DNA from: Isurus oxyrinchus
Lineage: Eukaryota
Assembly (NCBI GenBank): GCA_026770705.1
Contig: JANJGN010000042.1
Span: forward strand, 620,001-684,000
Direction of reading: 5' to 3'
DNA: 64,000 nucleotides
Below, piece after piece: positions 9,001-48,500 of the stretch. Made by a program: the position numbers. Every line of letters starts with the position of its first letter. Position 1 is the stretch's first letter.

Positions 9001-12000
9001 CTTTTACCGTTCAGGACATCTCTCCACTGTTAGCTGCATTTATTTTTAGCCACCACCGTTGTGCTCCTGTGTTTCTCTGTCCTTTCCCAGTCTCAGAAAC
9101 ACTCAATGGACGCACGGCCCCAATAAGATGCCAAGAACTCACTCCCACGGGCCCACAGTCCTCAGTCAGGAGTCACAGGTGGAACAAACTTTCCCGCTGA
9201 GTGGGGGCTGTGGACGGCTCGCTGCTGAATCAGTGCGGGAAATTATCAATTACGGTCGATATATGTTACGGTTCAATGAGTGTTGAAATTGAGTGGCTAT
9301 TTTAATGAGAACGGAAGTCATCTTTTCATTCAATTAAAACACTTTTTAATAAACAGCAGGCACGAGCAGGGTATGACTTCACAATAACATGGCCTTCGTC
9401 GATTGGTCCTGCAGCGAATGATGTCACAATTTTTCCAACATGTCACTGCACCGTGATTGGTTCTTGTTCCATTAAAGTTGGCTTACTCTGGATATTCCAA
9501 TATGCTTTTCGACCGTCACTCTGCACCTTATGAGACAATGATCGCTGTCTCCTTGATATTCCCCGCAGACACTTGATCTACCTGTCTAACCTCATTTGCA
9601 AGAGCCAGGTCTAGCAGTGCCTCCTTTCTTGTTGTACCGGATACATACTGCTATACAACATTCTCCTGAACACAATCGAGGAGCTCTTGCCCTTCTCTGT
9701 CCTTTATACTGTGAGTATCCCAGTCTATATTCCGGTAATTAAAGTGCCCTATTATTAGTATTCTTTCATCATTGCACCTCTGTGTTTACCCTGCAGAATT
9801 GTTCCATTACATCCTTCCTACTGGCAGACGGACGGCAGACAACACCTAGCACTTAATGGCACATTTTTCCCCCGTAGATCTCGCCAAATTGATTCTGTCC
9901 TTCAACCTTCTGGGACATCCTCTTTCTGCAGCACTGCCATGGTCTCCTTAAACAATACCGTCACCCCCGTCCTTTTCTTCCTGCACAATCTTTACTGCAT
10001 ACCTTTTACAGAGAAATATTTAGCATCCAGTCCTGCACTTCCTTGATCCTGTTGAAAACGGAAGTCTATGAAACGAAAAGCCAGAGGCAGCGTGGCCGAA
10101 TTTATGAGAGAATTGCAGTAAGGTGATGCAGTGCATAATTTCCAAAGCAGTAAGTGTACAATTATCTTGAGGCTGCTTTAAAAACTCGCGTTGTAACTTA
10201 TAACATTAGACAAGCATGTGAACATCGAATATCACATGACAATCCTGCAGCCTGTGTTACATTTCCTGTCCTGTTTGAAAATTCTTGCATCGGGGCATTT
10301 TCTACCACAGCGTGCATTCACTTGTGCAGCACTCACTTAGTGTTTAAAGGGCTTTTCAAGTATATGAAAGTGTTAGAAAAATTTGAACATTTTTAAAGTC
10401 CGTAGAAGTGTTTTAGATCAGAACAAAACACCCATCTGCCTTTGGCCTGAAAAGGGACCGCAGGGAACTTGTATCAGGCTCGTGACTTCAGGAGGGGCGG
10501 CCGTCGTCAGAAGTCACCCCGATGCTACATTTCACAGATCATTTTGTCCATGGGCCATGCATCAGCCAAAGGCTTAAATTCTGGCGGCAGCCAGTGAACA
10601 AGTCAAATTGGGATTCTCCAGAGCAATCAGGGCCAAAGGCCTCTCATTCACCCCTGACCACAAAATCCAGGTCGGTATCTTTTTATGAGAAAATAAATTG
10701 TGATCATGCTGCAATCTCTGGGTGTCAACTCCATTGAAAAAAAAAACTTTTTATTCTCCCAAAACATAAACGTCAGTCCTGAAGCAGCTGGGCTGAACTG
10801 TTTTTATTTAAAATTAATGTATTTAATACAAGAGATCAAACCACCTAATTAACTCCCTGGCGCTTCACATCAGTTATAAATGTGACAATCTTTCAGTGCA
10901 GTGCAGAAGGCGTTCAGAACATTTGTTGAAAATGCATGGATCACCAAAAGACCTTCTGTCTGCCATTTATTATCCAGTCCTTGCAGCTCTCGGGGTTCCA
11001 GGTAAAGTATTGTAATTAGTATTTTGATACGGAAATTGGTTATCTGCAGGAATTCTACCTTTTAAAAGCATTGTATATCCATAACGTTATACCCATGCTC
11101 CCAGTTCGCCCTTTATCTGTACAATTCTTCCCATTAATGGAGCAATTTCCCTCTTTTAACAAGTATATTTTATCCCTCTAAAAGAACATTTTCCCCACTT
11201 TATAGGTATAATGTCTCAATTTTGACAATATAATTTGTTCCCTTTGCCTAAAAGTCTCACCGCTAATGGCTTAATAATATGCTATTAAAGGTGCAATTCC
11301 TCGCTGTTAGTGGCATAATATAACATTGTTAAAAGCAAAATTTCACAATTTAAGTGCTATCATATCACCCTGCAAAGTGTGCAATTTCTCGCTGTTAATG
11401 GAAAAATATTACCCTGTTCAGGGTGAAATTTCTCGTTGTTAGCGGTATAATATCCCCCTTATAAGGGTGTAATTTTTCGTTGTAAGTGGTATTATATTAC
11501 CGTCTTCAACGGTGTTTTGCACCATTTAGTACTCGTGTATTTTCACACTGTTATCGCAGTGCAATTGCCTTTCCATTCTGTTACTGGCATTGTTGCTGAA
11601 GGAGAATTATCACATTGTAATCACGGTGCAAGTGTAATTGTCTTCTGTTACTGCAGGTGTATTTTAACAGTGACATTACAGTCTAAATGTTTTTCCATTG
11701 TGTTTCCAGTATCGTTACTGAAGGTGAATTATCACATTGCAATCACGGTGTGAATGTGATCACCTTCTGTTACTGACAGTCTAACTGTGGTTGAGTGATC
11801 ACACTTTAATCACAGTATGAATATGTTCGTGTTCTGTTACTGACAGTCGAACTGTGGTTATGTTATCATACTTTAAACGCACTGTGAAATGGATCATCTT
11901 CTGTTACTGACAGTCGAACTGTGGATGAGCTATCACACTGTTTTCACAGTGCAAATGCAAATCTGTTGTGTTGTTCACATTGACAATGATCGAACAATTC

Positions 12001-45500: not shown

Positions 45501-48500
45501 TGCAGTTCTGGTCCCCTTACCTAAGAAAGGATATACCTACCGTAGAGGGAGTTCAGCCAAGGTTCATCAGGCTGTTTTCTGGCCTGGCAGAATTATAGTA
45601 TGAGGAGAGCTTGGGCCGGCTAGGCCTTTATTCATTGGAGAACAGAAGAATGAGAGGCGATCGCATTGAAACATATGAAACTCTGACAGGAATGTACAGA
45701 CTGGATGCGGGGATGATAATTCCTCTGGCTCGGGCGTCTAGAACAAGGGGTCACAGACTCAGGATACGGGTTAGACCATTTAGGACTGAGATGAGGAGAA
45801 ACGTCTTCAATCAGAAGGTGGCGAGCATTTGGAATTCTCTAGCACAGAAGGCTTTGGAGGTCAAGTCACTGGATATATTTAAGAAGTAAATAAGTAGACC
45901 ACTAGCCTTCAAACGCATCAAGGGGTGTGGGGAGAGAGCCGGTCTAAGGCGTTCAGATAGAGGATCAGCCATCATCAAACTGAATGGCGGAGCAAGCTCG
46001 AAGGGCTCGAACAAGTAATCATACTCCTATTTTCAATATTTTGGTGGACATTTTTTTCCAGACACTGAAAGTAAGCATGAGGAATTAACTACCTGCACAA
46101 GGTTTGTAACACTGCTTCACATGTGCACATTGAAGATAGCAGTTAAAATGGGGCCTGTCCATATTCAATGCAAGATGACTGAACTGGGCCTTTGCAGACT
46201 TAGTGCAGCCGTGCATAATCTCGCCTGGCGCCACGGAAAGCAATTTACGGGAAATGGATGTGCACACTTACCCTTCCTTATCCGTCATGAATGAATGTAA
46301 CGTGGCAGAAATGGAGCCTCGACACATCACATAACCATTCCGAACTGGAGCGGTCCACATTAACTAGAATCGTGCTCAACTGGACCTCCGTTTACGGAGT
46401 TTAAGCGTACTCTCTATAATTATGCATAATTAACGCATAAGCGCTTGATTGCATCTGACCAAATAAAACGTAGCCGTTCACAGCTACACAGCTATGCGCA
46501 CTCACTAGAGTTGGATTTGACATGTCTGCAATGAACCTAACTGAAGTGGAATAATCCACACTGCAAGAAGCCGTACAGAAGAGGATTTGAGTACTTTAAA
46601 GCTAAAGGTGATGAGTTGAACATTTCCACACCAAATGCAAACAAGCTTATGTGAATGAGACAGAAAATGCTGGAAATACGCAATAGACTATTCAGCATCT
46701 GTGGAGAGAAAACGGTAAAAGTTCAGATCCATGACTTTACATCGAAGTTGGGGAATAGGGAGCAATGGAAGAATTCTTGTTTTCACTATAGCGGCGGGAA
46801 ACGGTTGTGATAAAGGGCAGATGATAAAGAAACATCAATGTAGGTTTGTGTTAATGTGGAAGACAGAAGGGCACTTTGTGAGGATGTTCCGTCAGAACAA
46901 TGTCAGTGACGTTGAAGAGCTTTCTACTCTGTCAAAATAAAAACAATTTCCTGACAGCTGCAGCACGAGCATCTTTGTTTCAATTTCAATTATTGCAAAA
47001 GATCAAAGCGTCTAATTGTCTCCCTGGAGGCTGGCCTGACATATATATGTGACTGTCTTTAGTTGTGGTGCAGAACACACTCGCAGCTGGTGACAGAAAT
47101 GCATGGATTGCCAAAATGTCTGATTTTCATCATATACTATCCTGTCCTTGCAGCGATCAGGATTCCAGGTTAAGGATTTTGGTTTGCTATGTTATTGAAA
47201 TCATTGTTTAATCACTTTTCTTTGGTTTGCTTTCATTTTAGTGAATCGTTGTTCGTATTTAGCAGCTTTGCTTCTGCATGGTACGATATTCTTTCTCCCA
47301 TTAAACAGAACAATCTATCAACATTACGCGACATCTTTCCACTTTAACAGCTCGACAATGTCACTTTTTTCCACTTCAAGGGAAATGTTTAATTTAATTC
47401 TCCATTTTAGCAACAAAATTGTTTTCTTTTACTGACATGATTAGTCGTCATCACATGTCGAGTCGCTCAAGTTTTTCCGTGTCATTTCTTCCCTTGTACA
47501 TAATTTCTCCCCAACGCCAGAATAATAGTTCAGCAGTAACAATGCACTATCTTCCCTGAGCTAGTAATATTTAGTCAGTTTAATTGGACACTTTCATCTG
47601 TTTACCTCCACCGTTCGAGGTTTCAGATGTTATTTTATTTTATGCTTGGTGTTTTTAAAAAAGGTTATGTATAACGCTGTTACCACTGAGGAAATGTTTT
47701 TCTGTTGTGTCAATGGCATTCTCATCGTGTGTGAATTATTACAGAGGAACTGTATCTGTATTATCTCATGCATTTCCCTTTCACCTATCGCTCCGATATG
47801 AACAGTATTTATCTGATAAATTTGTGCAGAATATTAAATGACTGGCCGAGAGTTTATTGTCTTAGCGGAAACCTGGCACCCTGGGCGGTGAAGACTTCTC
47901 AGGGAGCTGAAGTTGGTCTTGAATCCAGGATCTTTTGACTCCAAAGCTAGACGACTTTCAACTTAGCAGCAATTGAACCTTTAACTGTGTGTGGATTTCC
48001 TCACTGCTGTGAAGGACAGTTGTGTTCGCTGCAGGTCATCATAACTCAGGAGTTGTAGTTACCCTTTATTTCCATCCAAAGGAGTTTTTTTTCCCATTTT
48101 AGCTGTTTTCATTTGCTGGATTATGCCCACAGCAGCATCACTTTGTATTTAATTCCATTCGAAGCCATCTACTGAGTTTCTATCAAATTATTAGGTCGAT
48201 TTAACATTGTGTCCCTTCTGTTTTCCAATGTTCTATCCTGTTCTTATCTAAACAGCAAGCAAGAGGATACTTGATCGTTTTTCAATGAACTGAGTAAAAA
48301 TTCTGCAATTTGAATATTCACTATAGGGCCGAGCCCGCATTCTTCCTGTAAATCAGCACAGTATTGACGATTTGCTGTATTTTGGAATGAGTCTTTCTTT
48401 CTCCACTGGAGCATATAAGTCATAGGACTGAAATGGGAACATTGCTCTCTTTTCATGACCGATGCTGTATTTGTGAGTTTCTCAATATTTTCTGTTCTAT

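What the first reader, a model, noticed from the sequence alone, without database searches (positions are those of the whole stretch)
10785..47047. Conserved E-box, homeodomain/EBF(O/E)-like and TATA promoter shared by the GPCR paralogs
Seen: CAGCTG lies 144-147 nt and TATA exactly 57 nt before the ATG in genes 1, 2 and 4. TCCCT(G/A)G(A/C)G is present in all three, preceded at 2-nt spacing by TAATTR in genes 1 and 4. Established: adjacent Lhx2-type homeodomain and O/E (EBF) sites characterise mammalian odorant receptor promoters, and E2A plus EBF1 drive B-cell genes. Inference: the family may be an unrecognised chemosensory receptor repertoire or, given the Ig neighbours, B-lineage receptors. 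Shared ancestry alone could also explain the motifs.
[Added by the scan's program, not by the reader: the finding's places include an assembly gap (unread letters, written N; its length is only estimated) at 45292 to 45419. Whether the letters on both sides are continuous or in frame is not known: test that first.]
Basis: partly seen in the sequence, partly recalled or inferred. Interest (0 to 1): 0.75.

Follow-up and report, generated by a model that had tools for sequence, protein, structure and literature searches.

The report
Shared promoter of duplicated shark GPCR genes
Three neighbouring copies of a shark receptor gene carry the same short upstream sequence because they were duplicated together, and nothing here shows that its motifs are smell-type or B-cell-type switches.

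Summary
In three paralogs, CAGCTG lies 147, 145 and 144 nt before the ATG, TATA lies exactly 57 nt before it, and TCCCT(G/A)G(A/C)G lies exactly 78 nt before it. TAATTR sits 2 nt upstream of TCCCT in genes 1 and 4 only.

These motifs belong to one ~195-nt upstream block. The block is homologous in three tandem duplicates of a two-exon class A GPCR gene from the elasmobranch family that databases label "probable GPR139".

- **Ancestry:** Homology starts at -190 to -201 and runs through the whole ~3.5-kb gene unit.
- **Conservation:** The block is about as conserved as fourfold synonymous sites and somewhat better than introns. Within it, invariant columns are not clustered into footprints.
- **O/E-like site:** It matches the EBF palindrome TCCCNNGGGA only with 2 mismatches. 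Such matches occur once per 366 nt in this window.
- **Homeodomain site:** The adjacent site is missing in gene 2, the only gene with an intact exon 2. Genes 1 and 4 carry in-frame stops and a broken NPxxY.
- **Ig neighbours:** No Ig domain was found in the window.
- **Gap:** The N gap lies in a decayed retroelement, about 1.5 kb from the nearest promoter.

Verdict: an ordinary TATA promoter inherited by duplication. The chemosensory and B-lineage inferences are unsupported here.

The parts
10737..10931 (+). Gene 1 upstream homologous block (proximal promoter plus putative 5'UTR). It holds CAGCTG 10785-10790, TAATTA 10846-10851, TCCCTGGCG 10854-10862 and TATAAA 10875-10880.
   Evidence: Sequence read; pattern hits; block homology.
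10932..11001 (+). Gene 1 exon 1: ATG plus 70 coding nt (MHGSPKDLLSAIYYPVLAALGVP), phase 1, donor CCAG|GTAAAG.
   Evidence: The N-termini of homologs P0003, P0005 and P0034 begin with the same peptide.
11002..13163 (+). Gene 1 intron (2162 nt). It contains tandem repeats at 11285-11509 and 11725-11950 and is mostly not alignable with the other introns.
13164..14074 (+). Gene 1 exon 2 (303 codons including the terminal stop). It has an in-frame TAA at 13814-13816 and NPxxY changed to NLFIY, so it is a pseudogene by coding sequence.
30355..30549 (-). Gene 2 upstream homologous block. It holds CAGCTG 30494-30499, TCCCTAGAG 30424-30432 and TATAAA 30406-30411. There is no TAATTR next to TCCCT (CCTTTG instead).
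   Evidence: Sequence read.
30285..30354 (-). Gene 2 exon 1: ATG plus 70 nt (MHGIPEGLVFAIYYPVLAAIGIP), phase 1, donor CCAG|GTAAAG.
29025..30284 (-). Gene 2 intron (1260 nt), acceptor cacag|CT.
28114..29024 (-). Gene 2 exon 2, open throughout, with DRF and NPFIY intact. It is the only copy with an intact exon 2. Pfam 7tm_1 E = 3.2e-22.
46904..47098 (+). Gene 4 upstream homologous block. It holds CAGCTG 46955-46960, TAATTG 47013-47018, TCCCTGGAG 47021-47029 and TATATA 47042-47047. A second CAGCTG lies at 47084-47089.
   Evidence: Sequence read.
47099..47168 (+). Gene 4 exon 1 (MHGLPKCLIFIIYYPVLAAIRIP), phase 1. The donor is CCAG|GTTAAG, with T at the third intron base where genes 1 and 2 have A.
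47169..48549 (+). Gene 4 intron (1381 nt). It aligns with the gene 2 intron at 58% identity in ungapped columns, with 21 gap events.
48550..49457 (+). Gene 4 exon 2. It has an in-frame TGA at 48801-48803 (the R of DRF), a TAG at 48957-48959 (a conserved W), and NPxxY changed to NLFIC, so it is a pseudogene by coding sequence.
33683..34567 (-). Gene 3: a strongly decayed paralog (35% identity to gene 2, many stops). No promoter/exon 1 block is detectable upstream.
45292..45419 (.). Assembly gap inside a decayed retroelement. It is not part of the family's genes or promoters.

Best explanation
The E-box, TAATTR, TCCCT..G.G and TATA motifs are pieces of a single ~195-nt upstream block that was copied together with the gene. 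The copied unit is a ~3.5-kb two-exon GPCR gene that duplicated in tandem.

The block most likely is the gene's ordinary RNA polymerase II proximal promoter. It has a TATA box 57 nt before the ATG. I infer a transcription start 25-30 nt downstream of the TATA, which gives a 5'UTR of about 27-32 nt. About 120 nt of upstream sequence follows.

Exon 1 adds 23 codons plus one base (most of TM1). A phase-1 intron follows, and exon 2 encodes the rest of the receptor.

The identical spacings exist because no indel has hit the 110 nt before the ATG since duplication. The motifs persist mainly by common descent, with at most mild constraint on the block as a whole.

Which transcription factors bind is not shown. 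Two of the three promoters now sit in front of pseudogenes.
For: Shown:
- **Copies.** The window holds three copies of the block and no more. nhmmer gives E = 5e-90, 2e-84 and 2e-83; the next hit, E = 0.012, is the opposite strand of the gene 2 block itself.
- **Extent of homology.** For all three pairs, homology begins at -190 to -201. In the gene 2/gene 4 pair it continues through the intron and exon 2 to about 1 kb past the stop.
- **Gene 2 against gene 4, identity by region.** Positions -110..-1: 73.6% (81 of 110, no gaps). Positions -195..-111: 60.8%. Exon 1: 77.1%. Intron: 58.1% of 1139 ungapped columns. Exon 2: 78.6%, with third codon positions at 68.0%. The 3' flank: 59-60%.
- **Against synonymous sites.** Fourfold sites are 58.1% (43 of 74), 62.5% (45 of 72) and 70.1% (61 of 87) identical. 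The promoter -180..-1 is 68.0%, 67.1% and 71.1% identical. Fisher tests of promoter against fourfold sites give p = 0.15, 0.55 and 0.89.
- **No footprints.** 91 of 201 alignment columns in -195..-1 are invariant in all three genes. The longest invariant run is 6 (CTCCCT), and 62% of 5000 column permutations reach that length. Two runs of 5 or more are reached by 64% of permutations, and seven runs of 4 or more by 10%.
- **No special spacing.** A gapless 110 nt is expected with P = 0.19 at the intron's indel rate.
- **Gene model.** The exon 1 peptides match the N-termini of annotated homologs. 73 of the 120 listed homologs carry that peptide by regex, 66 of them at the very start.
- **Family history.** dN/dS is 0.28-0.30 and dS is 0.59-0.86, so the duplicates are old, were long constrained, and were only recently disabled.

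Inferred: the TATA-to-TSS distance and the 5'UTR length, from general knowledge of TATA promoters.
Against: Some results point to more constraint than pure descent.
- Measured against NG86 dS (0.83, 0.86, 0.59; expected neutral identity 50, 49 and 59%), the promoter distance (0.42, 0.43, 0.37) is about half the synonymous rate.
- Positions -110..-1 are more conserved than the gene 2/gene 4 intron (Fisher p = 0.0015).
- The gene 1 intron has lost alignability with the others while its promoter has not. Tandem repeats in that intron partly explain this.

So a functional, selected promoter is likely, and specific sites within it could be real.

Limits of the test:
- Three sequences give almost no power to detect footprints.
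- The MAFFT alignment used puts the gene 4 E-box 3 nt out of register, so the E-box was not counted as an invariant run.
- There is no transcript evidence, so an unseen upstream non-coding exon is not excluded.
Confidence: 0.75

Rival explanations
1. The block is an odorant-receptor-type promoter. An Lhx2-type homeodomain site and an O/E (EBF) site next to it drive sparse expression in olfactory sensory neurons, so the family is an unrecognised chemosensory repertoire.
For: - TAATTR lies 2 nt from a TCCCT core in genes 1 and 4, and further AT-rich TAAT-type stretches lie at about -120 in all three genes.
- Family properties fit an environment-facing receptor family. The best 120 database hits are all elasmobranch paralogs with E below 1e-117. 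The window holds a tandem cluster with pseudogenes.
- Among 74 members of 323-328 aa (of the 120 listed), variability peaks around residues 84-97, 131-147, 160-185 and 250-282. My own helix assignment, which is an inference, places these in the outer halves of TM3-TM7 and the extracellular loops. The intracellular motifs are conserved.
- Catshark has only 5-8 receptors in each of the OR, ORA and TAAR families (PMC6368271, abstract).
Against: - The TCCCT site needs 2 mismatches to TCCCNNGGGA in 3 of 3 genes. No promoter site is among the 16 window sites with at most 1 mismatch. Two-mismatch sites occur once per 366 nt.
- The adjacent homeodomain site is missing in the only intact gene.
- Tight Lhx2/Ebf juxtaposition typifies OR enhancers, not OR promoters (PMC5608512, passages).
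- There is no motif-level conservation above the neighbouring columns.
- The catshark study found no GPCR among the 50 most abundant and specific 'brain & olfactory epithelium' genes (PMC11979771, passage). This is weak evidence, because single receptor genes are expressed at low levels.
- No expression data were available here.
Confidence: 0.1
2. The block is a B-lineage promoter. E2A acts at the CAGCTG E-box and EBF1 at the TCCCT site, so these are lymphoid receptors that sit beside Ig genes.
For: - CAGCTG is present at -144 to -147 in 3 of 3 genes.
- EBF1 was first defined on a B-cell promoter (PMC4312928, passage).
Against: - No Ig domain was found among the 147 ORFs of 75 aa or more that were scanned. 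No V-set signature was found.
- The EBF match is weak.
- The E-box lies in the distal part of the block, which in the gene 2/gene 4 pair is no better conserved than the intron (60.8% against 58.1%, Fisher p = 0.72).
- CAGCTG is common in this window, occurring once per about 2 kb.
Confidence: 0.03
3. The block has no present function in these copies. It is a neutrally decaying relic, possibly patched by gene conversion between paralogs, and looks conserved only because the duplicates are not yet saturated.
For: - Promoter identity is statistically indistinguishable from fourfold-site identity in all three pairs.
- Two of the three genes are disabled by stops and NPxxY loss.
- Invariant columns are randomly spread.
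Against: - Gene 2 is intact, and the family has dN/dS of about 0.3, so a working promoter must exist for it.
- The block is more conserved than the intron and than the dS-based expectation.
- Homology ends sharply at about -195 in all pairs.
Confidence: 0.12

Closest known systems
Promoters of tandemly duplicated receptor gene families (for example mammalian OR and V1R promoters as analysed in PMC3247239 and PMC3247230)
   Same: Both have a short AT-rich proximal region near the start site that paralogs share, with a TATA box in at least a subset. The genes lie in clusters with pseudogenes.
   Different: This gene splits its coding sequence: exon 1 carries the ATG and 23 codons. The O/E match is only a half-site plus a degenerate half. 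Only three promoters could be compared, and the tissue of expression is unknown.
EBF/Olf-1 (O/E) binding site, palindrome TCCCNNGGGA (PMC4312928 and PMC2394523, passages)
   Same: The TCCC half-site is invariant in the three promoters, at -78.
   Different: The second half reads GCGC or GAGG instead of GGGA, which is 2 of 4 positions wrong in 3 of 3 genes. Matches of this quality occur once per 366 nt in the window.
Lhx2/Ebf composite motif of the OR 'Greek Island' enhancers (PMC5608512)
   Same: A TAAT-type site lies immediately beside a TCCC-type site in genes 1 and 4.
   Different: The composite motif typifies intergenic enhancers, not promoters. Here it sits 21 nt upstream of a TATA box, is absent in the intact gene 2, and could not be scored against the published matrix (figures and supplements were not available).
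GPR139 (human orphan class A GPCR; PDB 7vug, 9m42)
   Same: Both are class A 7TM receptors. Databases label the elasmobranch relatives 'probable G-protein coupled receptor 139'.
   Different: Similarity to the solved GPR139 chain is only 29 bits (E = 6e-6), the same as to muscarinic M4 (29.4 bits). The label is a best-hit name, not shown orthology. This family is greatly expanded in elasmobranchs.

Membership tests
TATA-box core promoter | A TATA(A/T)A element at a fixed short distance upstream of the gene start | tested here: met
   TATAAA, TATAAA and TATATA lie 57 nt before the ATG in 3 of 3 genes. TATAWA occurs once per 610 nt of duplex in the window.
TATA-box core promoter | Transcription starts about 25-35 nt downstream of the TATA | not testable with these tools
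   No transcript or CAGE data were available. The start at about -30 to -25 is an inference.
OR-type promoter (O/E plus homeodomain sites) | An O/E (EBF) site that matches TCCCNNGGGA near the start site | tested here: not met
   None of the three promoter sites is among the 16 window sites with at most 1 mismatch. All three need 2 mismatches, a class found 175 times in the window.
OR-type promoter (O/E plus homeodomain sites) | A homeodomain (Lhx2-type TAATTR) site in the proximal promoter of the family's members | tested here: inconclusive
   It lies beside TCCCT in genes 1 and 4 and is absent there in gene 2. Other TAAT-type stretches lie further upstream. TAATTR occurs once per 441 nt in the window.
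OR-type promoter (O/E plus homeodomain sites) | Statistical enrichment or conservation of the sites over flanking sequence across many promoters | tested here: not met
   With the three promoters available, invariant columns are not clustered. Power is very low, and no other elasmobranch genome DNA was reachable.
OR-type promoter (O/E plus homeodomain sites) | Expression in olfactory sensory neurons, one receptor per cell | not testable with these tools
   No expression data were available. Supplements of PMC11979771 were closed.
B-cell E2A plus EBF1 promoter | E-box plus a bona fide EBF1 site, in a lymphoid gene neighbourhood | tested here: not met
   The E-box is present. The EBF site is weak. 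No Ig domain was found in 147 ORFs and no V-set signature.
Class A (rhodopsin-like) GPCR, Pfam 7tm_1 | A match to PF00001 above the gathering score, with DRY-type and NPxxY motifs | tested here: met
   Gene 2 exon 2 scores 79.7 bits against a cut-off of 30.5. DRF and NPFIY are present.
GPR139 orthologue | Closer to GPR139 than to other class A receptors | tested here: not met
   Against solved chains, GPR139 scores 29.0 bits and muscarinic M4 scores 29.4 bits. No phylogeny was run.
Elasmobranch 'probable GPR139' expansion | High identity over the full length to the annotated elasmobranch paralogs, with the same N-terminal exon 1 peptide | tested here: met
   Up to 73% identity with E down to 8e-139, and the 120 best hits are all elasmobranch. 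The exon 1 peptide MHGxPxGLxFxIYYPxLAAxGxP is shared.

The most novel reading that the evidence does not exclude
The elasmobranch-wide class A GPCR family mislabelled 'probable GPR139' may be an unrecognised chemosensory, or otherwise environment-sensing, receptor repertoire of sharks and rays. These animals have very few classical ORs, TAARs and ORAs.

What fits this reading:
- The family has many dozens of paralogs per genome.
- Its genes lie in tandem clusters with fresh pseudogenes.
- Variability sits in the outer half of the helix bundle, while the intracellular loops are conserved.

On this reading, the family's shared ~195-nt TATA promoter, with a fixed TCCCT core at -78 and flanking TAAT-type sites, would be the family-wide control element for sparse neuronal expression.
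Probability: 0.12. Interest if true: 0.8.

Novelty: new member of a known kind. Interest (0 to 1): 0.22.

Why it matters
As it stands, this is an ordinary case. Paralogs made by tandem duplication keep their proximal promoter, so shared motifs at fixed spacing say little about which tissue expresses the genes.

The report's use is mostly corrective:
- The O/E, homeodomain and E-box labels carry almost no information at this match quality.
- Two of the three promoters belong to pseudogenes.
- The Ig context is not present in the window.

The gene family itself deserves attention. It is a large elasmobranch expansion of orphan class A receptors. I found no description of it in six searches of the paper library (and within PMC11979771). 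If expression data placed it in a sensory epithelium, it would bear on the long-standing puzzle of the small olfactory receptor repertoires of cartilaginous fishes.

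Tried and rejected
- **A fourth promoter copy.** I looked upstream of the decayed gene 3 and elsewhere with nhmmer --max and blastn word size 7. None was found.
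- **Ig neighbours.** A regex scan for V-set and C1-set signatures and for RSS heptamer/nonamer pairs gave no Ig signatures and only loose RSS-like matches. Pfam on 147 ORFs gave RVT_1 and a weak LysM match only. Exons shorter than 75 aa were not scanned.
- **Why homology ends at about -195.** BLAST of the three 1-kb upstream flanks against the window found only three short repeated pieces of 41-58 nt. The cause of the boundary stays open. Gene 1 has an A-run right at the boundary.
- **Global alignments with shuffles.** Gapped global alignment gives 59-66% 'identity' even for unrelated flanks, so those raw percentages were not used as a baseline. Only the z-scores were used. For -500..-181 they are 2.9, 0.9 and 2.5. 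For -1000..-501 they are 0.4, 4.7 and 1.1.
- **Other scans.** Rfam found no match in the window. No tandem repeats lie near the gap.
- **Literature on the family.** No relevant paper was found.
- **More promoters from other elasmobranch genomes.** This was not possible.
- **ESM Atlas.** The nearest clusters are again 'probable GPR139' chordate clusters. Invertebrate Srw/Srx-type clusters appear further down the list. I kept this as a lead only, because Pfam found only 7tm_1.

Full report
**What is there.** The window is elasmobranch-type DNA, and I do not take it for human. It holds a cluster of four paralogs of a class A GPCR (tblastn with the intact copy).
- Exon 2 of gene 2 (28114-29024, minus strand) is open throughout. 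It matches Pfam 7tm_1 at 79.7 bits against a cut-off of 30.5.
- Its best database relatives are annotated elasmobranch proteins, mostly named 'probable G-protein coupled receptor 139'. Identity reaches 73% and E reaches 8e-139.
- All 120 listed hits come from sharks or a ray, and 2121 proteins have E of 1e-5 or less among 3771 candidates.
- The name is a best-hit label. Against solved structures, GPR139 scores 29.0 bits, the same as muscarinic M4 at 29.4 bits.

**Gene model.** Each of genes 1, 2 and 4 has a first exon with the ATG and 70 coding nt (MHG...YYPVLAA.G.P, phase 1), ending CCAG|GT. An intron of 2162, 1260 or 1381 nt follows. Exon 2 has 302-303 codons and begins ...AG|CT AAT/AAC.
- The exon 1 peptide is the N-terminus of the annotated homologs. 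A regex finds it in 73 of the 120 listed hits, 66 of them at the very start; 47 were not matched.
- The spliced model was handled exon by exon. Searches used exon 2 alone, and exon 1 was compared separately. The joined coding sequence was not built or searched.

**State of the genes.**
- Gene 1 has an in-frame TAA at 13814, and its NPxxY reads NLFIY.
- Gene 4 has a TGA at 48801 in place of the R of DRF, a TAG at 48957 in place of a conserved W, and NLFIC. Its donor is GTTAAG.
- Gene 3 (34567-33683, minus strand) is riddled with stops.
- Only gene 2 has an intact exon 2.
- There are no frameshifts among genes 1, 2 and 4. dN/dS is 0.28-0.30 and dS is 0.83, 0.86 and 0.59. So the duplicates are old, were long under purifying selection, and genes 1 and 4 were disabled recently.

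**The observation.** Every motif is at the stated place.
- CAGCTG lies at -147, -145 and -144.
- TATA lies at -57 in 3 of 3 genes.
- TCCCT(G/A)G(A/C)G lies at -78 in 3 of 3 genes.
- TAATTR lies 2 nt upstream of TCCCT in genes 1 and 4 but not in gene 2.

**The gap.** The run of N at 45292-45419 lies about 1.5 kb upstream of the gene 4 block. Both flanks carry remnants of a reverse-transcriptase-type retroelement on the + strand in different frames. No promoter, exon or intron of the family touches the gap. Continuity and frame across it cannot be decided and do not bear on the finding. I did not fill it.

**Ancestry or selection.**
- The motifs lie in one upstream block that is homologous in the three genes. 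nhmmer finds exactly three copies.
- Pairwise BLAST shows homology starting at -190 to -201 in all pairs. In the gene 2/gene 4 pair it runs on through the intron, exon 2 and about 1 kb of 3' flank. The whole ~3.5-kb unit was therefore duplicated.
- For gene 2 against gene 4, identity is 73.6% in -110..-1 (no gaps), 60.8% in -195..-111, 77.1% in exon 1, 58.1% in ungapped intron columns, 78.6% in exon 2 and 59-60% in the 3' flank.
- The proximal 110 nt beat the intron (Fisher p = 0.0015). The distal part, which holds the E-box, does not (p = 0.72).
- Against fourfold sites (58.1, 62.5 and 70.1% identical), the promoter (68.0, 67.1 and 71.1%) is not significantly better (p = 0.15, 0.55, 0.89).
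- Against NG86 dS, the promoter evolves at about half the synonymous rate.
- I read this as mild constraint on the block as a whole, as expected for a working promoter. It is not a signal for particular motifs.

**Motif level.** In the three-way alignment, 91 of 201 columns in -195..-1 are invariant.
- The longest invariant run is 6 (CTCCCT). 62% of 5000 column permutations reach that length, 64% reach the observed two runs of 5 or more, and 10% reach the seven runs of 4 or more.
- That alignment places the gene 4 E-box 3 nt out of register, so the E-box is not among the counted runs. Counting it would add one run of 6.
- The 'exactly 57 nt' spacing needs only that no indel hit 110 nt. At the intron's indel rate (21 events in 1384 columns) this has P = 0.19 for one pair.

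**Are the labels justified?**
- The EBF/Olf-1 site is the palindrome TCCCNNGGGA (passages in PMC4312928 and PMC2394523).
- The window has 16 sites with at most 1 mismatch, against 16.5 expected, and none is in a promoter.
- The three promoter sites need 2 mismatches, both in the second half-site. 175 sites of that quality exist in the window, one per 366 nt.
- TAATTR occurs once per 441 nt, and CAGCTG occurs 31 times in 64 kb.
- PMC3247239 (abstract and passages) reports enrichment of O/E sites, homeodomain sites and TATA boxes near OR transcription starts.
- So the resemblance to OR promoters is generic. The one close feature, a homeodomain site abutting the TCCC site, is absent in the only intact gene.

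**Ig neighbours.** I found none in this window. No V-set or C1-set signature was found. Pfam found no Ig family among 147 ORFs of 75 aa or more; it found only RVT_1 and a weak LysM match.

**Conclusion.** The finding describes an ordinary TATA-type proximal promoter, 5'UTR and first exon, inherited by three tandem duplicates. The transcription start about 25-30 nt after the TATA is inferred, not shown. The chemosensory and B-lineage readings are not supported by the motifs.

**The family itself.** It looks like a ligand-diversifying receptor family.
- It is a large elasmobranch expansion whose genes cluster with pseudogenes.
- In 74 members of 323-328 aa (of the 120 listed), variability peaks at about residues 84-97, 131-147, 160-185 and 250-282. 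The DRF region, the third intracellular loop and the NPxxY/helix 8 region are conserved. The helix assignment is my own reading.
- Six look-ups in the paper library found no description of this expansion (and within PMC11979771). Supplementary expression tables of that paper could not be seen.
- Catshark has only 5-8 receptors in each of the OR, ORA and TAAR families (PMC6368271, abstract). A chemosensory role for this family is therefore an open but untested possibility.

**What stayed unchecked.**
- Any expression data.
- The published composite-motif matrix, because figures and supplements were not held.

Noticed in passing
window 45160-45890 (+), around the gap 45292-45419: These are decayed remnants of a non-LTR retrotransposon ORF2. 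A '...QKAFDK...' stretch lies left of the gap, and a '...FWSPYLRKD...GRLGLYSLENRRMRGD...' tail lies right of it, in different frames. One ORF somewhere in the window also matches Pfam RVT_1 (E = 2.3e-7), but the tool did not say which.
   Followed up: partly
window 36310-36462 (-) and 33256-33396 (-): Two further short GPCR-like fragments: 40% identity to residues 17-71 of gene 2, and 45% identity to residues 136-180. They flank the gene 3 pseudogene and look like leftovers of additional decayed copies.
   Followed up: no
window 11285-11509 and 11725-11950 (+), inside the gene 1 intron: Tandem repeats with periods of 44/88 and 67 nt (2.5-4.9 copies, 67-75% matches). They help explain why the gene 1 intron is about 800-900 nt longer than the others and does not align with them.
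   Followed up: partly
family-wide, residues about 206-234 of the 325-aa consensus (window gene 2, about 28300-28420, minus strand): The third intracellular loop (...SRARRRLR..SNGENQSDPEMEKRRKS...) is strikingly conserved across 74 paralogs from several elasmobranch species, while the outer helix halves vary. This suggests a common downstream coupling partner.
   Followed up: partly
window 47084-47089 (+): Gene 4 has a second CAGCTG 15 nt before its ATG, inside the putative 5'UTR. Genes 1 and 2 do not share it.
   Followed up: no
window 3927-4325 (+), 16000-18400 and 22000-24000: A CA-rich, microsatellite-like stretch gives an ORF full of H/T repeats. Two regions have strong positive GC skew (0.20 and 0.34) with long low-complexity ORFs. 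They are probably repeats and were not examined.
   Followed up: no
window 61898-61906 (+) and 13238-13246 (+): Two further exact matches to TCCCTRGMG lie outside promoters. One is inside gene 1 exon 2 (coding ...QSLAV...). The other is near the window's end, with no promoter-like block around it.
   Followed up: partly
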